64,000 nucleotides of DNA from Escherichia phage vB_EcoM_VR20. Location: the sequence record NC_028894.1; one strand, written 5' to 3'. The stretch's first letter is position 1. Each line of letters begins with the position of its first letter. Both the position numbers and the translations under genes were made by a program. Positions 1-61,550 of this stretch are shown piece by piece. The notes under the pieces were generated by a model. It saw only the letters and a list, made by a program, of their open reading frames with translations. It did not search any database and was not told the origin of the DNA.

Positions 1-798
1 GTTAATAAATGGAATGCTCCTGTTAAATCCCGTAAATTGAAAACTGCATTAACTGTTGAGCTTGCTCAGGATATGGAAGCAAATGGCTTTAATGCTCCTG
101 CGTTCCTGGAAGACCTGCTTGCTACTATTATGGCAGATGAAATTAACAAGGATGTTCTTCAGTCTCTTATTACCGTTTCCAAGCGTTATAAAGTAACTGG
201 CGTTTCTGACAATGGCACCATCGATTTAACATATGATGCAGCTCCAGAAGGTGCACGTAAACTGTACGAACTGGTTTGCGAAATGAACTCCGAAATTCAG
301 AAAACTACATCTTATTCCGGTACCTTTGTTGTTGCCTCCAGCCGTGTTGCTGCTATGTTGGCTGGTTCTGGCTGGCTGAAGCATAAACCTGAAGACGAAC
401 AGTGGCTTCCTGAAACAGCGTACGGTTATTTGATTAATGGTCTTCCTGTATTCTGTGATGTTAACAGTCCATTGGATTATGTAACCGTTGGCGTTAAAGA
501 AAATTACGGTGGAAACGAAGTCGTAGGCTCAATCTTCTATGCTCCTTATACCGAAGGCCTGGACTTAGATGATGAAGAACACGTAGGTGCGTTTAAGGTC
601 ATTGTGGACCCAGACAGCTTGCAGCCATCTATCTCCCTGATGGTTCGATATGCGCTTTCAGCTAACCCTTACACCGTTGCTAAAGACGACAAAGAAGCTC
701 GTATTATCGATGCAACTAATATGGATTTAATGGCCGGCCAGAGCAATATGTCTTATCTGCTCGGTGTTAAACTTCCGCCAATCATTTATGAGGCGTAA
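1..798 (+). CDS. 23: Major capsid protein gp23, C-terminal part (5' end lies outside the window)
   Basis: Frame 1 is open from base 1; paralogous to the downstream gp24 ORF; recalled gp23 C-terminal similarity and position upstream of gene 24. Confidence 0.85.
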   Translation, partial: VNKWNAPVKSRKLKTALTVELAQDMEANGFNAPAFLEDLLATIMADEINKDVLQSLITVSKRYKVTGVSDNGTIDLTYDAAPEGARKLYELVCEMNSEIQKTTSYSGTFVVASSRVAAMLAGSGWLKHKPEDEQWLPETAYGYLINGLPVFCDVNSPLDYVTVGVKENYGGNEVVGSIFYAPYTEGLDLDDEEHVGAFKVIVDPDSLQPSISLMVRYALSANPYTVAKDDKEARIIDATNMDLMAGQSNMSYLLGVKLPPIIYEA

Positions 799-3702: not shown

Positions 3703-3786
3703 GTTGAGTTAGTGAAGCTATCTTAACATGGAATTTTTAACTTGTAAACAGGGTTTTTATGCCAGGCAACGTTTGTACAGTACCAT

Positions 3787-3811
3787 AAAAACAAAGGGAC
3801 CCGAAGGTCCC
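3787..3811 (-). terminator. UUCG-tetraloop hairpin terminator downstream of hoc
   Basis: gggacc-cgaa-ggtccc with flanking A and T runs. Confidence 0.55.
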
Positions 3812-3818
3812 TTTTTAA

Positions 3819-4952
3819 TTAATAAACGTAATCGTATATAATACCAGCTTCTAAAGCGGTGCGATGAATAATTCGACCATTACGAGATTCTTGTACATCA
3901 ACCTCTGGATAGTCGGTAATCATTTTTTGAAGGGTATATCGGTGCAAATAATACGGGCTATCTGGAGCATCAGTTTTCCAGTCTTGCCCAGCAAGAGTCA
4001 TTTTCTGAATTTCGTCCATAACCCACCAACCACACCAGATATAAGCTGAATTACGAACTGGCAGCGGATGAACGTAAGGTAGTTCACCCTCTGGTTCAGG
4101 TGCGACTTTAGCGGTGACTGTTACATTACCAGTTTTTGTTACCGTCACTGGGTTATAATCAGTCGCCGAAACCACAACAGAAACTTCAATAACCTGTGAA
4201 CCTTCGGCGCTTGTATCGATTACCAGAGTATCCGTGGTGCCATCTACAGGAGAACCATCTTTCTTCCAAGAATAAGCAAAAGTAGCTCCACTCGGCGCGC
4301 CGACTACATCCGCTTTAAAAGAAGCTGGAGTACCTTCAGAGACAGTAATAGAAGCAGGCGTTAAAGTAACAGAAACACCCGACATAGTTTTCTTAACAAA
4401 CGTTACCTCAGCTCCTTTAGTTGCGGTGCCATTATTATAATCGGGTGCAGAAACAGTAACTTCGCAGTTCAATGTATAATTTGCTTCTGCTGATTCGGTA
4501 ACAGTAATAGTTTCACCAGTTTGACCTGGGATTACGCTAGTGTTACGTTTCCAAACATAAGCAATTGTTGCACCAGAAGGAGCACCTGTCACGTTAGCAG
4601 TAACAACTTGAGATTGCCCTATTTCTTTAGTAACAGAGGCCGGGTCTAAAGTCAGCGTGATTGCCGGCATTGTTTTATTCTGGATAGTTAAAGTTGTTTC
4701 AGCTTCAGCAGTTTCCGGTTCCCCGTCTGCCGGAGTGGTGGTTGCAACAACTTTAATAGTCTTACTGCCTGCTGGACCAACAGCGACATAATCCATTGCA
4801 GCAGTCACAGAAGATTGAGGAACGCCATCAACGGTCCAGACAAATGATTCGGTACCTTCAGCTGCAGCGCCAGCGCCGGTTGCAGTGAAATTGGTTGTTG
4901 CTCCAATAACGGCCGTAGCCGCCAAAGGAGCAATAGTTACGGTATAAGCCAT
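3819..4952 (-). CDS. hoc: Hoc, highly immunogenic outer capsid protein
   Basis: 377 aa (T4 Hoc 376); repeated Ig-like T/V/S-rich segments; conserved C-terminal capsid-binding region. Confidence 0.8.
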   Translation of the reverse strand: MAYTVTIAPLAATAVIGATTNFTATGAGAAAEGTESFVWTVDGVPQSSVTAAMDYVAVGPAGSKTIKVVATTTPADGEPETAEAETTLTIQNKTMPAITLTLDPASVTKEIGQSQVVTANVTGAPSGATIAYVWKRNTSVIPGQTGETITVTESAEANYTLNCEVTVSAPDYNNGTATKGAEVTFVKKTMSGVSVTLTPASITVSEGTPASFKADVVGAPSGATFAYSWKKDGSPVDGTTDTLVIDTSAEGSQVIEVSVVVSATDYNPVTVTKTGNVTVTAKVAPEPEGELPYVHPLPVRNSAYIWCGWWVMDEIQKMTLAGQDWKTDAPDSPYYLHRYTLQKMITDYPEVDVQESRNGRIIHRTALEAGIIYDYVY

Positions 4953-14561: not shown

Positions 14562-15520
14562 TGTTTACTTTACAAGAATTTCAAACACAAGCGATTAATA
14601 TCGACTTGCAGAGGAATAACCTTTTTAGTGTGGTCTTCGCGACCGCACCTTCCTCTAAATCTCAGAATCTTCTGGACCAGTTTGGTGGCGCATTATTCAG
14701 TAACCTTCCTGTTAACTCAGATTGGTTCGGATTAACACAAGGTGACTTAACTCAGGGGATAACAACTCTTGTTACTGCCGGGACACAAAAGCTTATTCGC
14801 AAATCAGGGATAAGCAAATATCTTATTGGGGCAATGAGTAACCGTGTTGTGCAATCATTATTAGGTGAATTTGAGGTTGGTACTTACCTGCTTGATTTCT
14901 TTAATATGGCTTATCCAACGGCTGGTCTATTAGTTCACTCTGTTAAGCTTCCGGATAACACATTGAACTACGAAATGGACCTTAACCATAATGCGCCAAA
15001 TATCAAGATAACAGGGAGAGAATATTCTCCGTTGGTATTGAGCTTTAGAATGGATTCAGAGGCAGGGAACTTCAGAGCATTTAACGATTGGGTTAACTCT
15101 GTACAGGACCCAGTTACCCAGCTAAGGGCTTTGCCTGAAGACGTTGAAGCTGATATTCAGGTTAACCTTCATTCGCGTAATGGGTTACCGCATACGGTTG
15201 TTATGTTAACTGGTTGTGTTCCTGTAAGTGTATCAGCGCCTGAATTGAGTTATGAAGGTGATAATCAGATAGCTACATTTGATGTGACTTTTGCTTATCG
15301 CGTTATGTCAACTGGTGCGGTGGGAAGAGCTGCAGCATTGGAATGGTTGGAAGATAAGGTTATTAAAGGTGTATCTGGTATTAGTTCAGATAACAACTTG
15401 AACGCAGAAGTTGCCAAATTGAGTCGCTTGTCTGGTGCTCAATCTGGATTAACAAGTCTATACAATACGTTTACTGGTTCTGGGAGAACAGTCTCTGGTG
15501 GAAGTCAACGTATATTATAA
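14561..15520 (+). CDS. 54: Baseplate tail tube initiator gp54
   Basis: 319 aa (T4 320); paralogous to gp48 and gp19. Confidence 0.85.
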   Translation: MFTLQEFQTQAINIDLQRNNLFSVVFATAPSSKSQNLLDQFGGALFSNLPVNSDWFGLTQGDLTQGITTLVTAGTQKLIRKSGISKYLIGAMSNRVVQSLLGEFEVGTYLLDFFNMAYPTAGLLVHSVKLPDNTLNYEMDLNHNAPNIKITGREYSPLVLSFRMDSEAGNFRAFNDWVNSVQDPVTQLRALPEDVEADIQVNLHSRNGLPHTVVMLTGCVPVSVSAPELSYEGDNQIATFDVTFAYRVMSTGAVGRAAALEWLEDKVIKGVSGISSDNNLNAEVAKLSRLSGAQSGLTSLYNTFTGSGRTVSGGSQRIL

Positions 15521-15549
15521 AAAGAAAGGGACCCGAAGGTCCCTTTTTT
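15520..15549. terminator. Bidirectional hairpin terminator between gene 54 and the alt block
   Basis: aaaagaaa-gggacccgaaggtccc-tttttt; A-run and T-run flank a perfect stem. Confidence 0.6.
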
Positions 15550-15838
15550 ATTTGCGGAATGAAATGAAACCTGCTGCAGTCATGACAGCTTCTTTCTTAA
15601 CAAATACTGTAATTGCAATTGGTGCTTCAGATTCAAGTTGTCCAGTTACTACACCATTAAAAATATTTTCTGTTTGTTCAGAATTTACAAAGTTTTCAAC
15701 AGGGCGAAGGTCAAACTTCTTATCTTCGCCAAACACGCGCCGCAGTTCATTACCCACTGCGCTGTCAAACTCTTCTGAAGCCGGGATAACATTCTCAACT
15801 ACCAGTTCCTGACCATTAAAGCGAAAAGATGATTTCAT
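15548..15838 (-). CDS. Hypothetical protein (T4 alt.-1 region)
   Basis: Internal ATG with GAGGAAAACAAA Shine-Dalgarno; early promoter GTTTACA-17-TACAAT upstream. Confidence 0.5.
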   Translation of the reverse strand: MKSSFRFNGQELVVENVIPASEEFDSAVGNELRRVFGEDKKFDLRPVENFVNSEQTENIFNGVVTGQLESEAPIAITVFVKKEAVMTAAGFISFRK

Positions 15839-15901
15839 TTTGTTTTCCTCATGTGCAATTGATATGAACATTGTATCGCACTTCCTTGTGCTTGTAAACC
15901 C

Positions 15902-22210: not shown

Positions 22211-22281
22211 TTTATTCTCCAGTTGTTTTCATTTGTTGGTACAGGTCTATAATATCATAACCTGTACCAAAGTAAACTGTT
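22211..22281 (-). promoter_or_regulatory. Early promoter with stem-loop (PeSL-like cassette)
   Basis: Minus strand GTTTAC-17-TATTAT; 8-bp stem ggtacagg/cctgtacc encloses the -10. Confidence 0.45.
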
Positions 22282-22650
22282 TTATGCGACTTTAATCCAA
22301 TTATCTAAATTTAATTCACCCTTAGCTTTCATTTTTTCAATCAAATCATCAGCAGTGGTGCGACCATTTTGATACCATGTAACATCTTCAGAATAACCAG
22401 TTTCTTCATCTTCATAGGTCTTACAACGAATCTTACCAAGAATCAAAGTTTTCAGTTCGTAGGTATCACCAGTAAAAAAGTTTGTTACCATAATTTTCCA
22501 GGAGAAGTCATCAGAAGGACCTTCTGGAGTCATGCAAGAAACGAATTCAAATTGTTCTTTATACAAGTGCCATTGCATTTCTTTAGTTTCAATGGCTTTG
22601 TAGCCGTCGTGGTCTTTACCTTTGATGTATGAGTTAAGATTGATTTTCAT
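22282..22650 (-). CDS. Hypothetical protein
   Basis: 122 aa; ATG preceded by the conserved leader repeat. Confidence 0.55.
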   Translation of the reverse strand: MKINLNSYIKGKDHDGYKAIETKEMQWHLYKEQFEFVSCMTPEGPSDDFSWKIMVTNFFTGDTYELKTLILGKIRCKTYEDEETGYSEDVTWYQNGRTTADDLIEKMKAKGELNLDNWIKVA

Positions 22651-22734
22651 TTTATTCTCCAGTGTTTTATTGTGTAACTCAGTATGGAATCATTATGCAC
22701 TGGACCAACCCTGTTGTAAACCTTTTATGGAAAT
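22651..22734 (-). promoter_or_regulatory. Early promoter plus conserved leader repeat
   Basis: TTTACA-17-CATAAT, then leader TCCATACTGAGTTACAC..CACTGGAGAATAAAATG shared with 38309, 57450 and 61474. Confidence 0.5.
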
Positions 22735-22758
22735 AAAAAAGGGACTCCGAAGAGTCCC
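22735..22758 (-). terminator. UUCG hairpin terminator
   Basis: A-run then gggactc-cgaa-gagtccc directly after the stop of the 53-aa ORF. Confidence 0.55.
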
Positions 22759-28775: not shown

Positions 28776-28840
28776 TCCTCAAATATTTTATAATCCGTGG
28801 GAGCATTATACTCTGCTCCCATGAGTTTGTACACTACTTT
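28776..28840 (-). promoter_or_regulatory. Early promoter with stem-loop (PeSL-like)
   Basis: TGTACA-17-TATAAT; stem gggagca/tgctccc encloses the -10. Confidence 0.45.
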
Positions 28841-29578: not shown

Positions 29579-30072
29579 AACTTGATGATTACCTCAACAA
29601 TATCATCCTGGGATAAACCATTCAGGAGGATGTGATTTGTACTGTCAGATGCTGAAATGCGGAACTGATTACCAACTTCATCCGCCATATCATCCTGGGT
29701 TAATACTGGGTGTTTAATTCCCAGGCGGTGCTGAAGTGTCAGGGGTTCAACCACAACATAACAAACACATCCATTGATATGCACATTAGGTTGGGTCTGA
29801 TTGATGAACACTTCTGCATCATATTTAACCAAATGGTTCTTTAAGAAGTCAACCATTTCAGGAACAGATTCATGCAGCGCTTCTTTCCGCTCTTCTGATT
29901 TTTTATCACGATATTCTTTTTGTTTCGCCTTCAACTTTTTATTGGAGGCGAGTTTTTTCCGCAAGTCAGTCATGAGACCAATTTTCTTGGTCCCTTTATA
30001 GACATAAATTCCGTCATGACGGTCACCATATTCATTGACAATCATTTCATTTGAAATCAGTTGCATATCCAT
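29569..30072 (-). CDS. alc: Putative Alc, host transcription shutoff factor
   Basis: 167 aa from the internal ATG with GAGGAAAATATT Shine-Dalgarno, same length as T4 Alc; position between the spanins and rnlA. Confidence 0.55.
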   Translation of the reverse strand: MDMQLISNEMIVNEYGDRHDGIYVYKGTKKIGLMTDLRKKLASNKKLKAKQKEYRDKKSEERKEALHESVPEMVDFLKNHLVKYDAEVFINQTQPNVHINGCVCYVVVEPLTLQHRLGIKHPVLTQDDMADEVGNQFRISASDSTNHILLNGLSQDDIVEVIIKLCK

Positions 30073-30085
30073 AATATTTTCCTCA

Positions 30086-30319
30086 TTAGTAGCGGTTGTA
30101 ACCCCGGGGGCCAAAAGAGTTGGCACCCAGACGTTCATCTTTCTTTTTGGCTCTTGCTCTAAACCCAGAATCACCTGTTTGAGCTTTCAGTTCTTTTAAC
30201 AATTTGGCCTTCAGGTCAGTAATGAAACCAATCCGGCGGTCTCCCTTGTAGACATAGATTCCATCATTTCTGTCGCCATATGCCTTTGTAACTCTGTCAT
30301 TTGAAATTAAGTTTAACAT
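30086..30319 (-). CDS. Small protein paralogous to the Alc N-terminal domain
   Basis: 77 aa; ..LISNDRVTKAYGDRNDGIYVYKGDRRIGFITDLKAKL aligns with Alc residues 1 to 45; basic tail. Confidence 0.5.
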   Translation of the reverse strand: MLNLISNDRVTKAYGDRNDGIYVYKGDRRIGFITDLKAKLLKELKAQTGDSGFRARAKKKDERLGANSFGPRGYNRY

Positions 30320-30390
30320 GTTTTGGTCCTCATCAGTAGTTGATGGAACCATTATGTATAGAAAGAAGGGGCTTGTACACCCCTTTTTTA
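30320..30390 (-). promoter_or_regulatory. Terminator/promoter cassette downstream of rnlA
   Basis: Hairpin gggg-tgtacaag-cccc overlaps the -35; TGTACA-17-CATAAT; leader CATCAACTACTGATGAGGACC. Confidence 0.45.
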
Positions 30391-31527
30391 TTATTCAGGC
30401 AGGATTACATCCGCTTGGTAGTCCACCGGGATGTAAAGTTTATGATTTTTAAGGAAAACATTATTGATTTGAGCGATGGTTTGCTCTGTTTCCTGGGGAC
30501 GTTGATAGGTGTTCATTAATACGGAGAACAAACCCGGATATGGTTTACACAACTCTTGACCTTTAATCGCAAACTCGCGTCGGTCTTTTCCCGCCAACTG
30601 TTTCTGGGCATCAAGCAACAGTCCCAGGGTATTGGACAGATAATCCAGATGTGCAATGGTAAAGGCATTAACTTTTTCACGAGCATAATCATCGCCAGTA
30701 AACATGGCAATAACATCATCTGCACCGCCTGCAACAACAACTTCAAACAGACGCTGGTTATTGTTAACAGAATCCTTTGTATGGTGTAAAGCACAATACC
30801 ATTCTGTCTTAACTTTAAATTTGCGACCATCGACCAGCTCATAGACAAAGCCTTCAATCTCTTTCATATCACGGACGTTTTCAATTGTAGTCGGGTCATA
30901 TGCTTCAACCAGGAATGGACGAAGCGCGGCATCTTTAAACAAATCCTGATAAGGGATATATTCGCCAGTTTCATTATGGCGAACGTTCAGTAAAATCAGG
31001 TCACGTTCCTGGTAAGGCAAAACAATGCGGTTGGTTGGTGCAACATATTCCATATTGCATGTATAACCAGCTTCAGTAATTTCAGTTACACGCTCACGGA
31101 AAGCTATACGGTGTTCTTGTTTGAATACCTGCAGTGCTTCTGCTGCCTGGGAGCTTTTGATTGACCCTTTGGATTTAAAAGCAATATTGGTCTGGTCCAT
31201 ATAAGTGGAGACAAGAGAGCCATCAGCCTTGGTCATGACCAGCGCAACTTCATCCATATTGATATCCATGGTCAACGGATTTTCACCCAGATTAAAGAAT
31301 TTTTCCATAGGACGAGCAGCAATGCGAACTGGACCATCGTCATCCATTTCAAACATAATACCACGGCACTCCAGTGCGTCATCAAGAAGCCAATCACTAT
31401 AGGAAGCATAGTTATAGCTAAAGATGCGGAACTTAGTTTCAAATGGAGAAACAAAATCCGTATAGAAAAACTTACCTTTATCGGATTCGGCGCAAAGCTT
31501 CATTAAGTTATCATATAATTCAATCAT
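30391..31527 (-). CDS. rnlA: RNA ligase 1
   Basis: 378 aa (T4 374); RIFSYNYASYSDWLL, ECRGIMFE and KADGSLVSTY match recalled T4 Rnl1. Confidence 0.88.
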   Translation of the reverse strand: MIELYDNLMKLCAESDKGKFFYTDFVSPFETKFRIFSYNYASYSDWLLDDALECRGIMFEMDDDGPVRIAARPMEKFFNLGENPLTMDINMDEVALVMTKADGSLVSTYMDQTNIAFKSKGSIKSSQAAEALQVFKQEHRIAFRERVTEITEAGYTCNMEYVAPTNRIVLPYQERDLILLNVRHNETGEYIPYQDLFKDAALRPFLVEAYDPTTIENVRDMKEIEGFVYELVDGRKFKVKTEWYCALHHTKDSVNNNQRLFEVVVAGGADDVIAMFTGDDYAREKVNAFTIAHLDYLSNTLGLLLDAQKQLAGKDRREFAIKGQELCKPYPGLFSVLMNTYQRPQETEQTIAQINNVFLKNHKLYIPVDYQADVILPE

Positions 31528-36058: not shown

Positions 36059-37716
<1,658 letters not shown>

Positions 37717-37720
<4 letters not shown>

Positions 37721-38068: not shown

Positions 38069-38308
38069 TCACGCTTTCTTAGCGACTTTCCAGTCAGCTT
38101 TAAATTGGTCAACGTCAGAGTGATGAATCCAGAAACCAGATGAGCTACCATCTTCATAAAGAGGACAACCATCACACTCATCTTTCCAACCCATTGCACA
38201 CAAAGTTTCTTCAGCTTTTTCTAGAGCTTCTGGATTGTTACCCTGGATTGTGAAATACCATTTGCCTTTAACTTCTGAATCTTTGATGCTCTCACGTTGT
38301 AATTTCAT
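38069..38308 (-). CDS. Hypothetical protein
   Basis: 79 aa, acidic with cysteine pairs; preceded by the conserved leader repeat. Confidence 0.5.
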   Translation of the reverse strand: MKLQRESIKDSEVKGKWYFTIQGNNPEALEKAEETLCAMGWKDECDGCPLYEDGSSSGFWIHHSDVDQFKADWKVAKKA

Positions 38309-38400
38309 TTTATTCTCCAGTGTTTTAGTTGTTAACTCAGTATGGGACCATTATGTCATAGCCCCATTTGGTTGTACACTACTTTTTAAATTTTATCAAG
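38309..38400 (-). promoter_or_regulatory. Early promoter plus conserved leader repeat
   Basis: TTGTACACTACTTTTT upstream element, -10 CATAAT, leader ..CCCATACTGAGTTAACAACTAAAACACTGGAGAATAAAATG. Confidence 0.5.
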
Positions 38401-39010: not shown

Positions 39011-39068
39011 TTTAATTTCCTCATTTTTGTTGAGGGAACATATTATCATGTTCCCGTTGGTTTGTATA

Positions 39069-39296
39069 CTAAGCTTGAATCAAGCCCATATAAAATTCAG
39101 CGTCTTCCGGGTGCATCCCTTCGCAATATTCATTTTGCATAAAGCGAGTAAGGTCTTCAAGAGGACCTTGAACTTCAATTTGAATACTAAAGAATTGGGT
39201 ATCTTTAATGTAAGTCATACACAAAGAAGGATACCGATTACGAATAACTTCGTAAGTGTATTCAAAATCAACGATATCAATATTAACCTTAGCCAT
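39069..39296 (-). CDS. Hypothetical protein
   Basis: 75 aa acidic; GAGGAAAATAAA Shine-Dalgarno; hairpin ggtctat..atagacc upstream. Confidence 0.5.
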
Positions 39297-39358
39297 TTTA
39301 TTTTCCTCATGTAGTTGATAGGTCTATAATAACATAATCATAGACCCGTTGTAAACTG

Positions 39359-39722
39359 CTATTTGAAGGCTTTTTGTAGAAGTTCAATGATTTGGTCGAC
39401 GTTATTAGCATCTACAACACAATTAATAGAAACCGCCCCTGAAGGTGTTTTTGTATAACTGGAGTATTCACGGAAGCAATAAAACTCTTCTTCACTAAGT
39501 TCAAAATAATCATCACCCATACCATCATCATTATAGATTGCACCATTAGCACAAATTATTTCGGTTACATAATCATAGCCGTCTGCACTTGATATTGATT
39601 TAACTTCAAAACCAATCACCATTTTCTTGGATGATGTCGACCATACTAGCATTCGATGAACTAATATCAATGAAAGATTTAATACGATGTGGATTGAACT
39701 CATATTTTTTGCCAATTTCCAT
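39359..39722 (-). pseudogene. Frameshifted paralog of the 38642 gene: 38-codon frame A (39606..39722) plus 80-codon frame B (39359..39605)
   Basis: Both halves align in register with the paralog; the frames break at UGG-UUU-UGA over the A4 run at 39608..39611. Confidence 0.45.
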
Positions 39723-39803
39723 TTTTATTTCCTCAGTGGTTATCAGTAGTTGATGGAATCATTATGCACCGGGTCAAGGGACTTGTACACTACTTTTTGA
39801 AAA
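39723..39803 (-). promoter_or_regulatory. Promoter cassette, near-duplicate of the one at 57450
   Basis: TGTACA-17-CATAAT; leader CATCAACTACTGATAACCACTGAGGAAATAAAAATG. Confidence 0.5.
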
Positions 39804-39826
39804 TAAAAAAGGGACCCGAAGGTCCC
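39804..39826 (-). terminator. UUCG hairpin terminator downstream of gene 32
   Basis: A-run then gggacc-cgaa-ggtccc. Confidence 0.6.
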
Positions 39827-39832
39827 CTTATA

Positions 39833-40744
39833 TTAAAGGCCAGCCAGAAGGTCGTCAAGACCATCATCAGAAGGCTCTGGAGTGCTTGGAGCAGTCGCAG
39901 TGCGTTCAGACTTAGCAGGTTTGCTGGAAGTGAAGTCTTCCATATCTTTATCAAAATCGTCCAGGTCAGCGCCCAGTTTATCGGCTTGCGCAGCAGCTTT
40001 AGAAGCAGCACCACCGAGAGCAGCTGTACCCATTACTTTAGCGAATTTCTTCTGATTCTCTTCAAGAGATTTAAATACCAGCAATTCATTCAGGTCAGAC
40101 ATTTCGTCCCAAAGTTTTTTCTGGAATGCTTCATCATTGATGCCAGCGATTTCAGACTGGTTCATGAATTTGGAATCATCGTAGTTTTTATAGCCGGAAA
40201 CCATTTTAGATTTCAGTACGAAGTTCGCACCTTCAAAAGGACAGGTTACATCAATAGCTGTTTCGCCCATGTCAACATCGACTTCAACCATCTGGTTGAT
40301 TTTGTCCATGATTTTCTTACCAAAGCGATATTTGAATACTTGGCCTTCGTTAGACGGAACAGCAGGGTCTTTAATGACCAGGATGTTAGCCCAGTAAGAA
40401 GTATTACGCTTCAGTTTACGATATTCGGATTCGTTTGTATTGTACAGGTCATTCTTATTCATGTACGCACACACAGGGCAGTTTTCATAATCGCCGTGAG
40501 TAGAAGTACAGTTTTCAATATACCATTGACCAGCATTTTTAAAGCCGTGGTTAACGAGCTTGATGAATGGAGATGGATTTTCTTCATTCTTAGAAGGCAG
40601 GAAACGAATAACCGCAGAGCCGACGCCATCAGTATCTTTCAGTTTCCATTCTTTTTTATCGTCAGAAGAGAAACCAGCACCACCTTTCAGTGCATTAAGG
40701 GAAGCAGCCAGGTCAGCAGGGTTTTTACGTTTAAACATAGACAT
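39833..40744 (-). CDS. 32: Single-stranded DNA-binding protein gp32
   Basis: 303 aa (T4 301); strong recalled identity; zinc ligand residues and acidic C-terminus. Confidence 0.92.
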
Positions 40745-40804: not shown

Positions 40805-41473
40805 TCAAAGTGATTGAAGCGTTATTTGACAGTTTTTAACGGTCTCGATGAACAATTTACGAGCTTCAAGAGAATCTATATTTAAGATTTTCTTATAGGC
40901 ATTTAGTTTGGTCGAATACTTTTCCCAAACCAAGTCGTTAGTCTGTTCATCATGTTTATTTATAATACCTAAAAATGAATCAAGCAAACAAAACGTTTCA
41001 AATGAGATAACATTCGATTGGAGAAGTTTGAAAATATAACTTGTATTCACTTTAGTATTATACTCGAAAATCTCTTGGAGCGATTTGACTTCGACTTTCT
41101 TACTGAAGTAATAGATGTTCTTTATATCATCTTCGTATACTTGTCTAATTCTTTTAAGTCTGCCAATGTATTCTCTATAAAATATCAGAGCATCGGCATC
41201 ACTTATATCGCCTATCCATGCATCCTGGTTTGCAACCAGGTTTGACATGAATATTAACGTTAATTCTTTGAGAGTGTACTTATCGCTAAGCTTTTCGAAA
41301 AAATACTTATCGCGACGTTTTTGATAAGCACTATCGGAGATTCGCATGGTCCAGTTATATTTGATAATATCATAACGACCCGAAAAATGCTGTTTGATGG
41401 ATAAGTACAGTTGGTATACTGATTTACCATTTATATATCGGTTGTTATTTGGAGGCATGCGAATCGTAATCAT
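40805..41473 (-). CDS. 59: Helicase loader gp59
   Basis: 222 aa (T4 217); strong recalled identity (KYDIIKYNW.MR.SD.AYQKRRDKYFF). Confidence 0.88.
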   Translation of the reverse strand: MITIRMPPNNNRYINGKSVYQLYLSIKQHFSGRYDIIKYNWTMRISDSAYQKRRDKYFFEKLSDKYTLKELTLIFMSNLVANQDAWIGDISDADALIFYREYIGRLKRIRQVYEDDIKNIYYFSKKVEVKSLQEIFEYNTKVNTSYIFKLLQSNVISFETFCLLDSFLGIINKHDEQTNDLVWEKYSTKLNAYKKILNIDSLEARKLFIETVKNCQITLQSL

Positions 41474-46969: not shown

Positions 46970-48106
46970 ATGGAAAGATTTATGGCTGAATTTGGACAGG
47001 GATATGTCCATGTTCCCGTGCTTTCTGAAAATAACGCAGTAAGATATAAATTGTCGATTGCTGGGACTTGTACCAAATCGCCAAACTATCCCTACGTTAA
47101 GTTTCAAGATGAGGCCTTCGGGCCTCAGACATTCCAGAATGGATTAAACCTTATTGAGATTGACCCAGTAACAAATACAATCACTGCAACCAAAAACTAT
47201 GGTTTCACAAAAGACTATGATGTCATTTCACAGGCCTTTGTGACTTATATTAATTCCATCCCAGCGGGTAGGATTGTTTGTTTGATATCGCAGGGAAAAT
47301 TGAATGCTTCCCAAACTTTAATTGATTGGTTCAGAACACATGGCTCGACTGCATTTCCGGATAAGTGGTTGATTGACCAAGTTGATACTTCGTATTCGGC
47401 TTTTTATATCTCTGGTCGAAATGCAATCGTTAAAGAGCATGTGCTATATAATGACGGGGTAACTGTTGAGGATGTATTGACTCCATTGGAAATGGTGTAC
47501 GACGACTTCGCTGATGTGGGTGGCACAGGATTCCCTCTGCGCATCGTGGAAGACGGAAACACATATTATAGTAATAGTACACAAGAAATAAAACGCTTCC
47601 CCACAGACTCCCCCATCACTCCTGCGGCCGATTATAATATGGCCCCTGGTGATACTTTTTATCTGAAGTTTCAGCTGACATATGACCAGGCACTTAAAGA
47701 CCTTGGAACAACTCAGATGTCTGTTCGATTCTTTAGTGGTCAGACGATGATTCAGTCAAACGATTATGATATCCCATCTACAGGTCAAGCAAGTCCACCG
47801 GCTGGCGCATGGATGACGTTTGAACGTTATGTAGTTGTTCCACCGAATGCTGATGGATTTACATTGTATGCAAGGAAGACCGTTGCTGCTGGACAAGGTG
47901 GAGTAAGGAATATTTTCTTTACAGAAATCGCGCGACAAGAAACACAAGCTAAATCTGCAGAAATCGGTGTCAACGGCATAAGAATGGTTGTAGCTGGAGA
48001 ACCGGGAAATCTTGGTAATGTCATTGCACAATTGAATGATAAAAATGCAACTAAAGCAAGTCAATCTGGATTTGTATTTGCTGCAGAATTCCGTGAAAAA
48101 GAATAA
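46970..48106 (+). CDS. 35: Long tail fibre hinge gp35
   Basis: 378 aa (T4 372); position. Confidence 0.85.
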   Translation: MERFMAEFGQGYVHVPVLSENNAVRYKLSIAGTCTKSPNYPYVKFQDEAFGPQTFQNGLNLIEIDPVTNTITATKNYGFTKDYDVISQAFVTYINSIPAGRIVCLISQGKLNASQTLIDWFRTHGSTAFPDKWLIDQVDTSYSAFYISGRNAIVKEHVLYNDGVTVEDVLTPLEMVYDDFADVGGTGFPLRIVEDGNTYYSNSTQEIKRFPTDSPITPAADYNMAPGDTFYLKFQLTYDQALKDLGTTQMSVRFFSGQTMIQSNDYDIPSTGQASPPAGAWMTFERYVVVPPNADGFTLYARKTVAAGQGGVRNIFFTEIARQETQAKSAEIGVNGIRMVVAGEPGNLGNVIAQLNDKNATKASQSGFVFAAEFREKE

Positions 48107-48126
48107 GGACCTTCGGGTCCTTTTTT
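48107..48126 (+). terminator. UUCG hairpin terminator after gene 35
   Basis: ggacc-ttcg-ggtcc followed by TTTTTT. Confidence 0.6.
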
Positions 48127-48129
48127 CAT

Positions 48130-48137
48130 TATAAATA
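48130..48137 (+). promoter_or_regulatory. Late promoter TATAAATA of gene 36
   Basis: Exact motif about 25 bp upstream of the gene 36 ATG. Confidence 0.6.
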
Positions 48138-54622: not shown

Positions 54623-54805
54623 AGTAAGGATATTGTACTATTATTCCTCTGGGTTGTACACATGATTTTCCATCTGTACAACATATGTCTGATACATATC
54701 TTCAATTGGTTCCTGGAACTTAAAATCAGCTCCAAGGAATTCCTCAAAGCAAGCTTGCTCGCGTGTACGCTGACCAGTAACGGTGTTCTCTAAGTTATGA
54801 CTCAT
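54623..54805 (-). CDS. Small hypothetical protein, 60 aa
   Basis: ATG overlaps the arn stop (ATGA); open frame found by hand, not in the ORF track. Confidence 0.3.
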
Positions 54806-55098
54806 ATGTTATTCCCCATTTCAATATAATCTTCTAGACCAAAATCATCGATTTCTTCTTGGATTTCTCTTAAAATTTGTTCTTCATCTAAGCCAGCGCC
54901 AAAGGTCACTTTAACATAACCGGGACGTTCACTAGAGAACCGAATTGTGTATTCCGGTTGGATATAGCCAAAACTACTATCCAAATCACAAAGAATTTCT
55001 GCATAGATTTCGTCGCCGACATCAGCATGAATTTTAAAAAGTTCATCAATGAGAATAACTAGTTCAGTTGCTTTGTACGTATGGAGTTTAGTAATCAT
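54802..55098 (-). CDS. arn: Putative Arn, anti-restriction nuclease
   Basis: 98 aa, strongly acidic, next to asiA as in T4; not sequence-verified. Confidence 0.45.
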   Translation of the reverse strand: MITKLHTYKATELVILIDELFKIHADVGDEIYAEILCDLDSSFGYIQPEYTIRFSSERPGYVKVTFGAGLDEEQILREIQEEIDDFGLEDYIEMGNNI

Positions 55099-55951: not shown

Positions 55952-56295
55952 TTGATATTCACCTTATAACCATTATATTTCACGAATTCATGAATTTTAT
56001 CACCAATACCAATCAGCTCGCCTTTATCAGGAGAAGCTAATTTGATATCAACTGTTTGACATACACCAAACGAAGTTATGGATACTTTTTCTATAGTAAT
56101 AATCTCAAGAAAACGTGATAACTGCATACCAAATTCAAGAGTAACATTATCAATTTGGAGATGAAGGTTATAAATTACCTTAATACCATTCACCAGGGCA
56201 CAGCGCTCATCCCAAGCGTTACGTTGCTCTTCAATCAATTTAAGGGAATGGCCTTCGCCATCCCAATTTAGTTCCATAGGAATCATTTGAACCAA
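55948..56295 (-). CDS. Hypothetical protein
   Basis: 115 aa. Confidence 0.5.
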
Positions 56296-56615: not shown

Positions 56616-56622
56616 AATTTCC

Positions 56623-57231
56623 TCACTTTAAGATGTTAATAACATGTTGAATGTTTTCAGTTGACATAACGTTGTCAATGTAGGTATTCAATCCACCCAC
56701 TTTAACGCTAAATCCCACGTCTGTAAACTGTTTTACTATCTTTTGTTCAGTATTATACGCATGCACGCGAATCTGACCATCACGACGAACATCAATCTGT
56801 TTTAATGTCTTGACACGCTTGAACTTCACAATCAGATTGCTGCGGTCTTCTGAAATGCTCTTAAAGTCAATACCAATAGACAACAATTGCTCTTTGATAT
56901 ATTCTGCAGTCGCTTCCATTTCATCAGTCACACCGCGTTTTGTTCTTGTCTTCTTCACTTCCAGAAGGTCGGGATTATTTTCATTCGCCCAAAGTTCAGC
57001 TGCATCCAGAATAAGGTCAACACCTTTTTCTGTAACCATCAAACCATCACCAGAAGCTTCAACATAGTTGTTATTCAACAATGTCTGTACGCTATCAATT
57101 GATGTGTTCTGCTGGTCTAAAACAACCTCTGGACTCACAAAGTTGTTTTTGTATACAAACACCAGAGCATTGACATCAGTCTCATGCAGCGCGTTCTGGG
57201 AGCATTTAACGATATAATTTAACTTGTTCAC
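56623..57231 (-). CDS. motA: Middle transcription activator MotA
   Basis: 202 aa (T4 211); matches recalled T4 MotA (..ASGDGL..TEKG.DLI..AAELWA.EN.P.LL). Confidence 0.85.
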   Translation of the reverse strand: MNKLNYIVKCSQNALHETDVNALVFVYKNNFVSPEVVLDQQNTSIDSVQTLLNNNYVEASGDGLMVTEKGVDLILDAAELWANENNPDLLEVKKTRTKRGVTDEMEATAEYIKEQLLSIGIDFKSISEDRSNLIVKFKRVKTLKQIDVRRDGQIRVHAYNTEQKIVKQFTDVGFSVKVGGLNTYIDNVMSTENIQHVINILK

Positions 57232-57233
57232 AA

Positions 57234-57449
57234 TTATCCCTTAATAGATTTCATGTAATTTGATGCATATGATTGTACCACAGTACGTTTCATATGGGAA
57301 GTAGAAACAATCACATCAATCGCTTGTTTACGTTCTTCTTTAGAATTCGCCAGTTTGAACATGTCAAAGTAATAATAGCAAGCTTCTTTGTTAGATTTGA
57401 ATTTGATGTTGATGTATTCTTGACCTTCATTCTGTTGTGCAGTAAACAT
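57234..57449 (-). CDS. Hypothetical protein (motA.1 position)
   Basis: 71 aa from the internal ATG with GGAGAATAAA Shine-Dalgarno. Confidence 0.5.
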   Translation of the reverse strand: MFTAQQNEGQEYINIKFKSNKEACYYYFDMFKLANSKEERKQAIDVIVSTSHMKRTVVQSYASNYMKSIKG

Positions 57450-57540
57450 TTTATTCTCCAAAGTTTTTGTGATTCAGTGTGTAACTCAGTATGGAATCAT
57501 TATGCATCAGGTCAAGGGAATTGTACACTACTTTTTAAAA
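57450..57540 (-). promoter_or_regulatory. Promoter cassette, near-duplicate of the one at 39723
   Basis: AAAAAGTAGTGTACAATTCCCTTGACCTGATGCATAATGATTCCATACTGAGTTACAC. Confidence 0.5.
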
Positions 57541-57541
57541 T

Positions 57542-57563
57542 AAAAAAGGACCCCGAAGGGTCC
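57542..57563 (-). terminator. UUCG hairpin terminator
   Basis: A-run then ggaccc-cgaa-gggtcc. Confidence 0.55.
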
Positions 57564-57661
57564 TAGTCTTTATCTATCTTATTGCCAATAAACATACCAA
57601 CAATCACACCCGCGATTGCCGCGAAAACACAAAGTAATGCAAACTCCACTCCAAAACTCAT
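57563..57661 (-). CDS. Hydrophobic micro-ORF, 32 aa
   Basis: MSFGVEFALLCVFAAIAGVIVGMFIGNKIDKD; ATG overlaps the gene 52 stop; below the track cutoff. Confidence 0.35.
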   Translation of the reverse strand: MSFGVEFALLCVFAAIAGVIVGMFIGNKIDKD

Positions 57662-59886: not shown

Positions 59887-59960
59887 ATTAATTTCCTCAG
59901 TAAGTTAAAGTTTTGTGCTCCAGTGGGGTCATTATACTCTGACCCCAAGAGTTTGTACAC
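59887..59960 (-). promoter_or_regulatory. Early promoter with stem-loop upstream of ndd
   Basis: TTGTACA-17-TATAAT; stem ggggtca/tgacccc encloses the -10. Confidence 0.45.
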
Positions 59961-61473: not shown

Positions 61474-61550
61474 TTTTTCTCCAGTTGTTTGGTAACTCAG
61501 TATGGAATCATTATACATAGACTCCATACTGATGTACACTATTTTTTAAT
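61474..61550 (-). promoter_or_regulatory. Early promoter with stem-loop plus conserved leader
   Basis: TGTACA-17-TATAAT; 9-bp stem cagtatgga/tccatactg encloses the -10. Confidence 0.5.

What the first reader, a model, noticed from the sequence alone, without database searches (positions are those of the whole stretch)
39723..39826. Near-identical ~100-bp terminator/promoter cassette present twice
The sequence at 39745..39826 and that at 57488..57563 share an A-run, a UUCG hairpin, an A/T-rich upstream element, TGTACA, a 17-bp spacer and CATAAT at roughly 90 percent identity. This fits the promoter-early stem-loop (PeSL) cassettes proposed to shuffle accessory ORFs in T4-type phages. One copy sits beside the frameshifted paralog.
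Basis: partly seen in the sequence, partly recalled or inferred. Interest (0 to 1): 0.55.

Follow-up and report, generated by a model that had tools for sequence, protein, structure and literature searches.

The report
Terminator plus early-promoter cassettes, T4-like phage
The two look-alike 75-base stretches are real: each is a transcription stop signal followed by an early-gene start signal in a T4-like coliphage, they are the two closest members of a larger, already described family of such cassettes (PeSLs), and they have apparently swapped short sequence patches.

Summary
The working strand is the minus strand, and the element is not present only twice. The window comes from a Gaprivervirus, a T4-like coliphage.

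- **Copy A (39761-39827)** lies between gene 32 and a frameshifted frd.2a.
- **Copy B (57499-57564)** lies between a 32-aa ORF downstream of gene 52 and a 71-aa ORF followed by motA.
- **Shared anatomy:** each has a C(UUCG)G hairpin with a T-run, an A-tract, GTGTACA-N17-CATAAT, and a leader with a ribosome-binding site. A and B are 88% identical (66/75).
- **Family:** about 15 promoter sites of this kind lie on the minus strand. The core pattern matches 10 times against 0.16 expected. They precede classic T4 early genes (asiA, motA, ndd, alc, frd.x, 30.x).
- **Conservation:** both sites are occupied in all 12 close relatives examined, and in JS10 and T4.
- **PeSL reading:** the anatomy fits. 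ORFs downstream of A are swapped, lost or moved in relatives, with junctions inside promoter cassettes. B is flanked by syntenic core genes, and A and B enclose 17.7 kb of essential genes.
- **New detail:** the window's A carries a unique 6-nt patch of B-type sequence, and sister phages carry reciprocal patches. This suggests short-patch gene conversion.

Verdict: a new member of a known kind, of modest interest.

The parts
39833..40744 (-). Gene 32 (ssDNA-binding protein); its stop codon TAA at 39833-39835 lies 5 nt before hairpin A
   Evidence: ORF; annotated as gp32 in SP18, P479, DK-13 and VR25 at the matching position
39811..39827 (-). Hairpin A: GGGGACC-UUCG-GGUCCC, a C(UUCG)G tetraloop
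   Evidence: Read; terminator scan; RNA MFE -14.7 kcal/mol, z -3.0
39800..39810 (-). T-run TTTTTTATTTT following hairpin A (U-tract of an intrinsic terminator)
39791..39799 (-). A-tract CAAAAAGTA upstream of the -35 (UP-element-like), shared across the family
   Evidence: Family listing
39784..39790 (-). -35 region GTGTACA of cassette A
39767..39783 (-). 17-nt spacer AGTCCCTTGACCCGGTG. Positions 39768-39773 hold five changes unique to this window, four of them to the base found in B cassettes
   Evidence: 12/12 relatives read GAGCTAAGG here. None of the 32 deposited genomes that align over most of the cassette exceeds 95.2% identity. Clustering P about 2e-5
39761..39766 (-). -10 hexamer CATAAT of cassette A
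39723..39760 (-). Leader of A (GATTCCATCAACTACTGATAAC...) with ribosome-binding site GAGG at 39731-39734. The transcription start is inferred near A 39754
   Evidence: This leader is closest to that of cassette 30380, not B
39359..39722 (-). frd.2a homologue, frameshifted by an extra T at 39608-39611
   Evidence: Alignment with P479, SP18 and T4; annotation
57563..57661 (-). 32-aa ORF overlapping the gene 52 stop; its stop codon TAG (57563-57565) overlaps hairpin B
   Evidence: Read; 99-bp ORF annotated at the same place in UPEC01, DK-13 and P479
57547..57564 (-). Hairpin B: AGGACCC-UUCG-GGGUCCU
   Evidence: RNA MFE -16.7 kcal/mol, z -3.5
57537..57546 (-). T-run following hairpin B
57522..57528 (-). 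-35 region GTGTACA of cassette B, preceded by A-tract AAAAAGTA at 57529-57536
57505..57521 (-). 17-nt spacer ATTCCCTTGACCTGATG of B (14/17 identical to the A spacer)
   Evidence: 0.82 against a median of 0.35 for all pairs
57499..57504 (-). -10 hexamer CATAAT of cassette B
57450..57498 (-). Leader of B (GATTCCATACTGAGTTACAC...TTTGGAGAATAAA), with ribosome-binding site GGAG at 57456-57459
   Evidence: 90% identical over 30 nt to the leader of cassette 22721
56623..57449 (-). Genes driven by B: a 71-aa ORF (57234-57449) and motA (56623-57231)
   Evidence: ORFs; motA annotated in UPEC01, VR26, DK-13 and SP18
22692..22758 (-). Third hairpin-plus-promoter composite: GGGACUC-UUCG-GAGUCCC, T-run, GTTTACA-N17-CATAAT. 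It lies upstream of 30.8
   Evidence: (MFE -14.4, z -4.2)
38350..38379 (-). Family member driving frd.1, with a stem-loop around the -10
39040..39069 (-). Family member (GTATACA) driving frd.2b, with stem GGGAAC/GTTCCC around the -10
39326..39355 (-). Promoter-like site (TTTACA-N18-TATTAT) driving the frd.3-like ORF 39069-39296. It is part of the module 39075-39367 that sits elsewhere in VR25 and is absent from SP18
28805..28834 (-). Family member with stem GGGAGC/GCTCCC around the -10; the downstream ORF has no SP18 counterpart
59931..59960 (-). Family member driving ndd, with stem GGGGTC/GACCCC around the -10
30351..30380 (-). Family member driving alc, with stem AAGGGG/CCCCTT around the -35. 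Its leader is the closest to that of A
54632..54661 (-). Family member upstream of asiA
61510..61539 (-). Family member in the variable ndd.x region, with a B-type leader
15870..15899 (-). Family member (GTTTACA) upstream of alt.-3

Best explanation
Each copy is a composite regulatory cassette on the minus strand of a Gaprivervirus (T4-like) genome.

**How it works (inferred from sequence).** An intrinsic terminator, made of a C(UUCG)G hairpin plus a U-run, ends and 3'-protects the upstream transcript. That transcript is gene 32 for A, and gene 52 plus a 32-aa ORF for B. Immediately after it comes a host sigma-70-dependent early promoter: A-tract, GTGTACA, N17, CATAAT. It starts a new transcript about 7 nt past the -10, with a 35-50 nt leader and a ribosome-binding site. 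For A that transcript covers frd.2a and the small frd.x ORFs. For B it covers a 71-aa ORF and motA.

**Family (shown).** A and B belong to the phage's genome-wide early-promoter family, the T-even form of the published PeSL cassettes.

**Why they look alike (inferred).** They share descent, and their spacer is shared, which promoter function does not require. They also exchange short patches by ectopic recombination. The window's A carries a B-type patch, and sister phages carry reciprocal patches.

**Recombination role (shown only as a comparative pattern).** The cassettes give portable homology at which neighbouring small ORFs are lost, replaced or moved. This is seen downstream of A but not at B.
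For: - **Anatomy:**
- **Hairpin stability:** -14.7 and -16.7 kcal/mol, z about -3 to -3.5. The stems differ by compensating swaps.
- **Family:** 10 exact pattern hits, all on the minus strand, against 0.16 expected. Each is followed by a ribosome-binding site and ATG. They sit upstream of asiA, motA, ndd, alc, frd.1-3, 30.7, 30.8 and alt.-3.
- **Positional conservation:** both cassettes are present in SP18, P479, DK-13, EAWsc9, VR26, UPEC01, TH40, TH41, TH44 and TH54. A was also recovered in VR25 and DCP80; B was not examined there. Hairpin-plus-promoter composites occupy the same two positions in JS10 and T4.
- **Homology beyond function:** spacer identity is 0.82 against a median of 0.35. 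The leaders are mosaic: B resembles 22721 (0.90) and A resembles 30380 (0.73).
- **Conversion patches:** 12/12 relatives have GAGCTAAGG where the window's A has GACCCGGTG. The B alleles read GACC[TCG]G[AC]TG. DK-13's A has B-type ATCCCC, and the B of TH41 and TH54 has A-type AGTCCC. No deposited genome shares the window allele. Five of six differences fall in 6 nt, P about 2e-5.
- **Shuffling next to A and other cassettes:**
- **Published framework:** PMC2839356 and PMC4122927 for PeSLs; PMC2988021 for the extended consensus of T4 early promoters; PMC4371310 for the UUCG hairpin found in T4 mRNA.
Against: - There are no transcript data for this phage. Promoter and terminator activity are inferred from sequence and position.
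- TGTACA matches TTGACA at only 4 of 6 positions. A generic sigma-70 scan finds no more sites than in shuffled sequence (14 against 12.9 and 11.2). The case therefore rests on family-level conservation.
- No breakpoint occurs at B in any Gaprivervirus relative, so B shows no shuffling role.
- The donor of the patch is not identified exactly. The nearest B alleles differ by 1 nt and the window's own B by 2 nt. One of the five changes matches neither the A type nor the B type.
Confidence: 0.8

Rival explanations
1. Pure functional convergence. The two stretches look alike only because each is an optimised terminator plus a strong early promoter. There is no pair-specific common descent and no recombination between them.
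For: - T4 early promoters are known to share consensus well beyond the hexamers (PMC2988021).
- The A-tract, GTGTACA and CATAATGATTCCAT are shared by many family members.
- T4 has six similar places per genome.
Against: - The 17-nt spacer is not conserved across the family (median identity 0.35) yet is 0.82 between A and B.
- Patch patterns differ by lineage and are reciprocal: window A, DK-13 A, and the B of TH41 and TH54.
- Five changes clustered in 6 nt are not expected from point mutation.
Confidence: 0.1
2. Recent duplication, or insertion of a small mobile element (MITE-like or a homing-endonuclease footprint), placed the same about 100-bp element at two sites in this genome.
For: - The two copies are direct repeats of 88% identity, 17.7 kb apart.
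- Homing endonuclease genes such as segG come and go nearby in relatives.
Against: - Cassette A is present in all 12 Gaprivervirus relatives examined and cassette B in the 10 where it was examined. Equivalent composites sit at both positions in JS10 and T4.
- Neither terminal inverted repeats nor target-site duplications were seen on reading the two copies. The flanks and leaders are unrelated.
Confidence: 0.03
3. The window-specific patch in A is not gene conversion. It is either an assembly or consensus artefact at a repeated sequence, or a single complex mutation such as template switching.
For: - The allele is found in no other deposited genome, nor in the single metagenome contig matching the B-type spacer pattern, which is a B cassette.
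- The adjacent frd.2a has a homopolymer frameshift that could be a sequencing error.
Against: - The patch is not identical to the window's own B (2 differences), as simple read mis-assignment would give.
- Independent genomes show other A/B patches (DK-13, TH41, TH54).
Confidence: 0.12
4. The active promoter in B is not TGTACA-N17-CATAAT but the overlapping TTGACC-N16-CATACT that lies inside it.
For: The scan lists TTGACC (57515)-N16-CATACT (57488) with 9/12 matches, the same score as TGTACA-N17-CATAAT.
Against: - The equivalent site in A has CATCAA as its -10 and fails the scan.
- UPEC01 and TH44 B alleles lack TTGACC (TTGTCT) but keep GTGTACA and CATAAT.
- The family-wide register is GTKTACW-N17-YAYWAT.
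Confidence: 0.07

Closest known systems
PeSL (promoter-early stem-loop) cassettes of T4-type phages: RB49/phi1 (Arbiol et al. 2010, PMC2839356); PST/T4 and nt-1/KVP40 (Comeau et al. 2014, PMC4122927)
   Same: - Intergenic composite with the same order of parts: upstream stop codon, stem-loop, A/T-rich region, -35/N17/-10, ribosome-binding site, start codon.
- Many copies per genome on the early strand.
- In A and B the stem-loop sits just upstream of the promoter, as in PST/T4. Other window members have stems around the -10 or the -35, as in RB49/phi1.
- Indels and replacements of small ORFs lie next to cassettes, with junctions between the -35 and the start codon.
   Different: - The genus differs (Gaprivervirus). 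The -35 is mostly GTGTACA rather than TTGACA (RB49) or TTTACW (T4/PST).
- Copy B flanks conserved core genes and shows no rearrangement.
- The evidence here is short conversion patches between distant copies, not the deletions or mini-circles shown by inverse PCR in RB49/phi1. No experiment was done here.
Phage T4 early promoters and the T4 gene 32 terminator
   Same: - T4 has a GC-rich hairpin, TTTTTTATTTT, an A/T-rich stretch and GTTTACA-N17-TACTAT at the same two positions: after gene 32 and before motA.
- T4 early promoters are described as UP/-35/TGn/-10 promoters with extra consensus (PMC2988021).
- From my own knowledge, not tested here: the gene 32 terminator is a classic strong terminator used in the omega interposon.
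   Different: - The sequence differs outside the T-run. The T4 hairpins here lack the UUCG loop, and the spacers are unrelated to the Gaprivervirus ones.
- The T4 A and B copies share 39 identical nt upstream through the -35, but not the spacer.
C(UUCG)G extra-stable tetraloop hairpins of T4 mRNAs
   Same: - All three composites in the window use a C(UUCG)G loop.
- The same hairpin recurs at 3785-3820, 15517-15552 and 48095-48130.
- The motif was first noticed in T4 mRNA (PMC4371310).
   Different: Nothing unusual. Here it serves as the stem-loop of a canonical intrinsic terminator.

Membership tests
PeSL cassette (Arbiol 2010 / Comeau 2014) | Sigma-70-type early promoter: -35 and -10 boxes separated by about 17 nt | tested here: met
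   GTGTACA-N17-CATAAT in both copies. The pattern gives 10 hits against 0.16 expected. Activity was not measured.
PeSL cassette (Arbiol 2010 / Comeau 2014) | [quoted passage not shown] | tested here: met
   TTTTTTATTTT(C)AAAAAGTA directly upstream of the -35 in A and B.
PeSL cassette (Arbiol 2010 / Comeau 2014) | Stable stem-loop within or next to the promoter, able to act as a terminator or attenuator | tested here: met
   Hairpins of -14.7 and -16.7 kcal/mol, z -3.0 and -3.5, followed by a T-run. Termination itself was not measured.
PeSL cassette (Arbiol 2010 / Comeau 2014) | Intergenic, bounded by the upstream stop codon and the downstream ribosome-binding site and start codon | tested here: met
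   A: TAA at 39833-39835 to ATG at 39720-39722. B: TAG at 57563-57565 to ATG at 57447-57449.
PeSL cassette (Arbiol 2010 / Comeau 2014) | Repeated many times in the genome, mainly in regions rich in small non-essential ORFs | tested here: met
   About 15 sites on the minus strand. They cluster at 22.2-30.4 kb, 38.3-39.8 kb and 57.5-61.5 kb, and none lies in the tail-fibre block.
PeSL cassette (Arbiol 2010 / Comeau 2014) | Adjacent ORFs differ between closely related phages, with junctions in or at the cassette | tested here: inconclusive
   - Met for A: VR25 replacement at 39722/39723, VR26 fusion, SP18 deletion 39025-39293, VR25 relocation of 39075-39367.
- Met for cassettes 22721 and 28834.
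- Not met for B, which is collinear in all Gaprivervirus relatives.
- No statistical comparison was made with non-cassette intergenic sites.
PeSL cassette (Arbiol 2010 / Comeau 2014) | Recombination between cassettes yields deletions or mini-circles (inverse PCR) | not testable with these tools
   This needs infected-cell DNA. Only indirect comparative evidence is available: the mosaic leaders and the patches.
Intrinsic (Rho-independent) terminator | GC-rich stem, short loop, and a U-tract of at least 5 immediately 3' of the stem, on the transcribed strand and downstream of a stop codon | tested here: met
   Minus-strand scan hits at 39829-39808 and 57564-57547, each with a T-rich tail.
T-even early promoter set (positional orthology with T4) | Same genomic position as a T4 terminator and early promoter: after gene 32, and upstream of motA | tested here: met
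   T4 and JS10 intergenic sequences at both positions show a hairpin, a T-run and GTTTACA-N17-TACTAT.

The most novel reading that the evidence does not exclude
The promoter-terminator cassettes of T4-like phages evolve in concert. Copies many kilobases apart, separated by essential genes, keep exchanging patches of about 6-30 nt by ectopic gene conversion. This can happen within a genome or between co-infecting relatives. Regulatory sequence would then be homogenised or reshuffled independently of the genes it controls. The cassette family would form a genome-wide network of recombination micro-targets, rather than only local brackets for accessory ORFs.
Probability: 0.4. Interest if true: 0.4.

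Novelty: new member of a known kind. Interest (0 to 1): 0.27.

Why it matters
For annotation, it shows that these two 'repeats' are regulatory signals: the gene 32 terminator with the frd.x early promoter, and the promoter of the motA operon. They are not mobile DNA or a duplication. It extends the PeSL picture to Gaprivervirus. It adds comparative support that junctions of ORF gain, loss and relocation fall inside such cassettes. It gives one concrete, testable hint that distant cassettes exchange short patches. It does not open a new kind of biology.

Tried and rejected
- **Rfam:** a scan of the whole window at gathering thresholds gave no hit, so no known structured RNA explains the conserved leaders.
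- **Generic sigma-70 scan:** promoter-like sites are no more frequent than in shuffles. The scan is uninformative on its own, and the family-specific pattern was needed.
- **Folding of the promoter-plus-leader parts of A and B:** no structure beyond chance, z -0.4 and +0.9. The stem-around-the-(-10) seen in other family members is absent from A and B.
- **IMG/VR scan with the cassette pattern:** it returned only VR25 and VR26.
- **Metagenome scan with the B-type spacer pattern:** it returned one contig, an ordinary B cassette. No second copy of the window's A allele was found.
- **Papers not held:** the T4 genome review (PMC150520) and the JS98 genome paper could not be read. Whether early promoters of the JS98/SP18 group were catalogued there remains unchecked.
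- **Open-library searches:** a search for Gaprivervirus or JS98 early-promoter descriptions found nothing specific. A search for the gene 32 terminator and the interposon found nothing.
- **Duplication or mobile-element idea:** rejected, because cassette A is present in all 12 relatives and cassette B in all 10 checked, and T4 has the equivalents.

Full report
**1. What is in the sequence**

The two stretches align as claimed. A 41-nt probe from copy A matches only copy B, with 3 mismatches, against zero expected in shuffles. From the hairpin to 8 nt past the -10, identity is 66/75 = 88%. Ungapped identity over 73 nt is 82%.

The informative strand is the minus strand. For copy A it reads, in order:
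- the gene 32 stop codon (39833-39835);
- GGGGACC-TTCG-GGTCCC (39827-39811);
- TTTTTTATTTT, then CAAAAAGTA;
- GTGTACA (39790-39784);
- a 17-nt spacer;
- CATAAT (39766-39761);
- a 38-nt leader with GAGG;
- ATG at 39722.

For copy B it reads:
- the stop codon of a 32-aa ORF that overlaps the end of gene 52;
- AGGACCC-TTCG-GGGTCCT (57564-57547);
- a T-run, then AAAAAGTA;
- GTGTACA (57528-57522);
- a 17-nt spacer;
- CATAAT (57504-57499);
- a 49-nt leader with GGAG;
- ATG at 57449.

Both hairpins fold well as RNA, at -14.7 and -16.7 kcal/mol with z about -3 to -3.5. Both are called terminator-like on the minus strand. The two stems differ by compensating swaps, so pairing is kept.

**2. It is a family, not a pair**

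The repeat finder groups A and B with further copies. A pattern search for GTKTACW-N17-YAYWAT gives 10 hits, all on the minus strand, against 0.16 expected. Allowing 16-nt or 18-nt spacers, GTATACA and GTTTACT brings the count to about 15 sites, each followed by a ribosome-binding site and an ATG.

CTTCGG-N6-TTTTT occurs three times, at A, at B and at 22736-22752, against 0.08 expected. So there are three hairpin-plus-promoter composites.

Six other members carry a strong stem-loop whose loop holds the -10 hexamer. Each has a different stem sequence, with MFE -12 to -15 kcal/mol and z -3.3 to -4.9. One further member has a stem around the -35.

**3. Where the window comes from and what the cassettes flank**

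The window is 95-98% identical to Gaprivervirus phages (Tevenvirinae): DCP80, P479, TH44, SP18, VR25 and DK-13.
- Copy A lies between gene 32 and an frd.2a homologue.
- Copy B lies between gene 52 with its 32-aa ORF and a 71-aa ORF followed by motA.
- The other members precede alt.-3, 30.7, 30.8, a cd-region ORF, alc, frd.1, frd.2b, an frd.3-like ORF, asiA, ndd and ndd.x ORFs.

These are the classic early genes of T4. T4 and JS10 have a GC-rich hairpin, a T-run and GTTTACA-N17-TACTAT at the same two positions.

The straightforward reading is therefore an intrinsic terminator followed by a host sigma-70-dependent early promoter. T4 early promoters are known to share consensus beyond the hexamers (PMC2988021). 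The C(UUCG)G hairpin was first noticed in T4 mRNA (PMC4371310).

**4. Why A and B are the closest pair**

Segment-wise comparison shows the following.
- A and B are each other's best match in the 40 nt upstream of the -35.
- They are also each other's best match in the spacer, which is not needed for promoter recognition: 0.82 against a median of 0.35 for all pairs.
- Downstream of the -10, B is closest to cassette 22721 (0.90) and A to cassette 30380 (0.73).

The cassettes are therefore mosaics.

I collected 13 orthologous A cassettes and 11 B cassettes from Gaprivervirus genomes.
- Within-genome A-B identity ranges from 73% to 88%. The window is the highest.
- All 12 relatives read GAGCTAAGG in the 3' half of the A spacer. 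The window reads GACCCGGTG.
- The B alleles read GACCTGATG, GACCCGCTG, GACCGGATG or GACCCGATG, plus a distinct TTGTCTTAGGA allele in UPEC01 and TH44.
- Five of the six differences between the window's A and P479's A fall in 6 nt (39768-39773). Four of them change to the B-type base.
- The chance of that clustering is about 2e-5, and about 1e-6 jointly with the direction of change.
- None of the 32 deposited genomes that align over most of the cassette carries this A allele. The best identity is 95.2%. The single metagenome contig that matches the B-type spacer pattern is an ordinary B cassette.
- Other lineages show other patches. DK-13's A has the B-type ATCCCC and an extra A in the A-tract. 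The B cassettes of TH41 and TH54 have the A-type AGTCCC.

I infer repeated short-patch exchange between the two cassettes, either within a genome or between co-infecting relatives. The exact donor is not identified. The nearest B alleles differ by one base, and one of the five changes matches neither type.

**5. Does it shuffle ORFs?**

Next to A, yes, as a comparative pattern.
- VR25 keeps cassette A at 96% identity but replaces frd.2a with an unrelated 258-bp ORF. The breakpoint is at 39722/39723, the start codon.
- VR26 joins the A promoter to an ACTGAGTTACAC-type leader and frd.2b.
- SP18 lacks 39025-39293, the frd.3-like module. Its junction lies in the 17-nt ATGAGGAAA(A/T)TAAAATG that two neighbouring leaders share.
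- VR25 carries the module 39075-39367, which is promoter plus ORF, inserted into the frd.1 cassette between its -35 and its ribosome-binding site (window 38318/38372).
- T4 itself is 93% identical to the window only over 39465-39735. That match ends at the ribosome-binding site.
- Cassette 22721 abuts an extra gene (30.6A) in SP18. The ORF downstream of cassette 28834 has no SP18 counterpart.

These junction positions, between the -35 or -10 and the start codon, are the ones reported for PeSL crossovers in RB49/phi1 (PMC2839356).

At B, no. All Gaprivervirus relatives are collinear through B. The indels in that region lie elsewhere, at 54806-55095, 55955-56279 and 56616-56619.

A and B are direct repeats that enclose genes 32, 59, 33, rnh, 34-38, t, asiA and motA. 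A crossover between them would not give a viable deletion.

I did not test whether junctions are statistically enriched at cassettes compared with other intergenic sites.

**6. Comparison with what is known**

The anatomy meets every sequence-level criterion of the published PeSL cassettes.
- A and B correspond to the T-even layout, with the stem-loop just upstream of the promoter (PMC4122927).
- The members with stems around the -10 or -35 correspond to the RB49/phi1 subclasses (PMC2839356).
- Arbiol et al. already mention PeSL-like sequences in JS98.

In T4 the two equivalent cassettes share 39 identical nucleotides from the T-run through GTTTACAA. Six places per T4 genome match that cassette. 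Strong similarity among such cassettes is therefore a general property of the subfamily.

This is a new member of a known kind. The only mildly new element is the evidence for lineage-specific conversion patches between distant cassettes.

**7. Limits**

No transcript or recombination data exist for this phage. Promoter and terminator activity, the transcription start and the conversion mechanism are all inferences. The frameshift in frd.2a and the patch in A should both be checked against raw reads.

Noticed in passing
window 39608-39611 (within 39359-39722, minus strand): frd.2a carries one extra T in a T-run relative to P479, SP18 and T4. The ORF is split into a 38-aa piece and a 118-aa piece. 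It is unresolved whether this is a real pseudogene or a homopolymer sequencing error.
   Followed up: partly
window 28805-28834, 59931-59960, 38350-38379, 61510-61539, 39040-39069, 22249-22277 (minus strand); also 39326-39355: Six early-promoter cassettes have a strong stem-loop whose loop contains the -10 hexamer. The stems all differ in sequence (for example GGGAGC/GCTCCC and GGGGTC/GACCCC), with MFE -12 to -15 kcal/mol and z -3.3 to -4.9. By eye, the frd.3 promoter at 39326-39355 has a similar stem (GGTCTAT/ATAGACC); I did not fold it. This matches a PeSL subclass described for RB49/phi1. What the stems do is unknown.
   Followed up: partly
window 30351-30392 (minus strand): The alc promoter has a stem AAGGGG/CCCCTT that encloses the -35 (MFE -11.1, z only -1.6). 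The A and B spacers begin with the same (G/T)(T/C)CCCTT at the equivalent position. In A, GTCCCTT occurs twice: in the 3' arm of the hairpin and at the start of the spacer.
   Followed up: no
window 39465-39735: Phage T4 and many Tequatrovirus genomes are 93% identical to the window over only these 271 nt, the N-terminal half of frd.2 up to the ribosome-binding site. Neighbouring genes are about 70% identical. This points to exchange between genera, with one end at the cassette.
   Followed up: partly
window 57450-57461, 22648-22660, 38306-38320, and the 22277 leader: Several leaders end in GGAGAATAAAATG. This matches the strong RegB cleavage consensus GGAGRAYARAA (PMC3014915). The leader of cassette A has GAGG instead. 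The transcripts from B and from A may therefore differ in RegB sensitivity.
   Followed up: no
window 3785-3820, 15517-15552, 48095-48130: The same C(UUCG)G hairpin recurs: GGGACC/GGTCCC at the first two sites and GGACC/GGTCC at the third. At the first two sites T-runs lie on both sides, so these look like bidirectional terminators.
   Followed up: no
L002 3031-3175 and L028 3054-3180 (phage T4): In T4 the cassette after gene 32 and the one before motA share 39 identical nt (TTTTTTATTTTAAAAATTTTTTCACAAAACGGTTTACAA) and the same -10 region, but have different hairpins and spacers. Six places per T4 genome match.
   Followed up: partly
window 37500-37714; 40824-40835; 54806-55095; 55955-56279: These are other presence/absence differences from close relatives that are not at promoter cassettes.
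- A 75-aa ORF (37493-37720) is missing from P479, DK-13 and EAWsc9.
- segG is inserted between genes 32 and 59 in SP18 and DK-13 but not in the window.
- A 98-aa ORF (54802-55098) is missing from UPEC01, VR26 and DK-13 but present in JS10.
- A 115-aa ORF is missing from DK-13.
   Followed up: partly
window 583-780 vs 1870-2067; 29993-30057 vs 30243-30307: Two further direct repeats, of 198 nt at 73% and 65 nt at 74%, were reported by the repeat finder and not examined.
   Followed up: no
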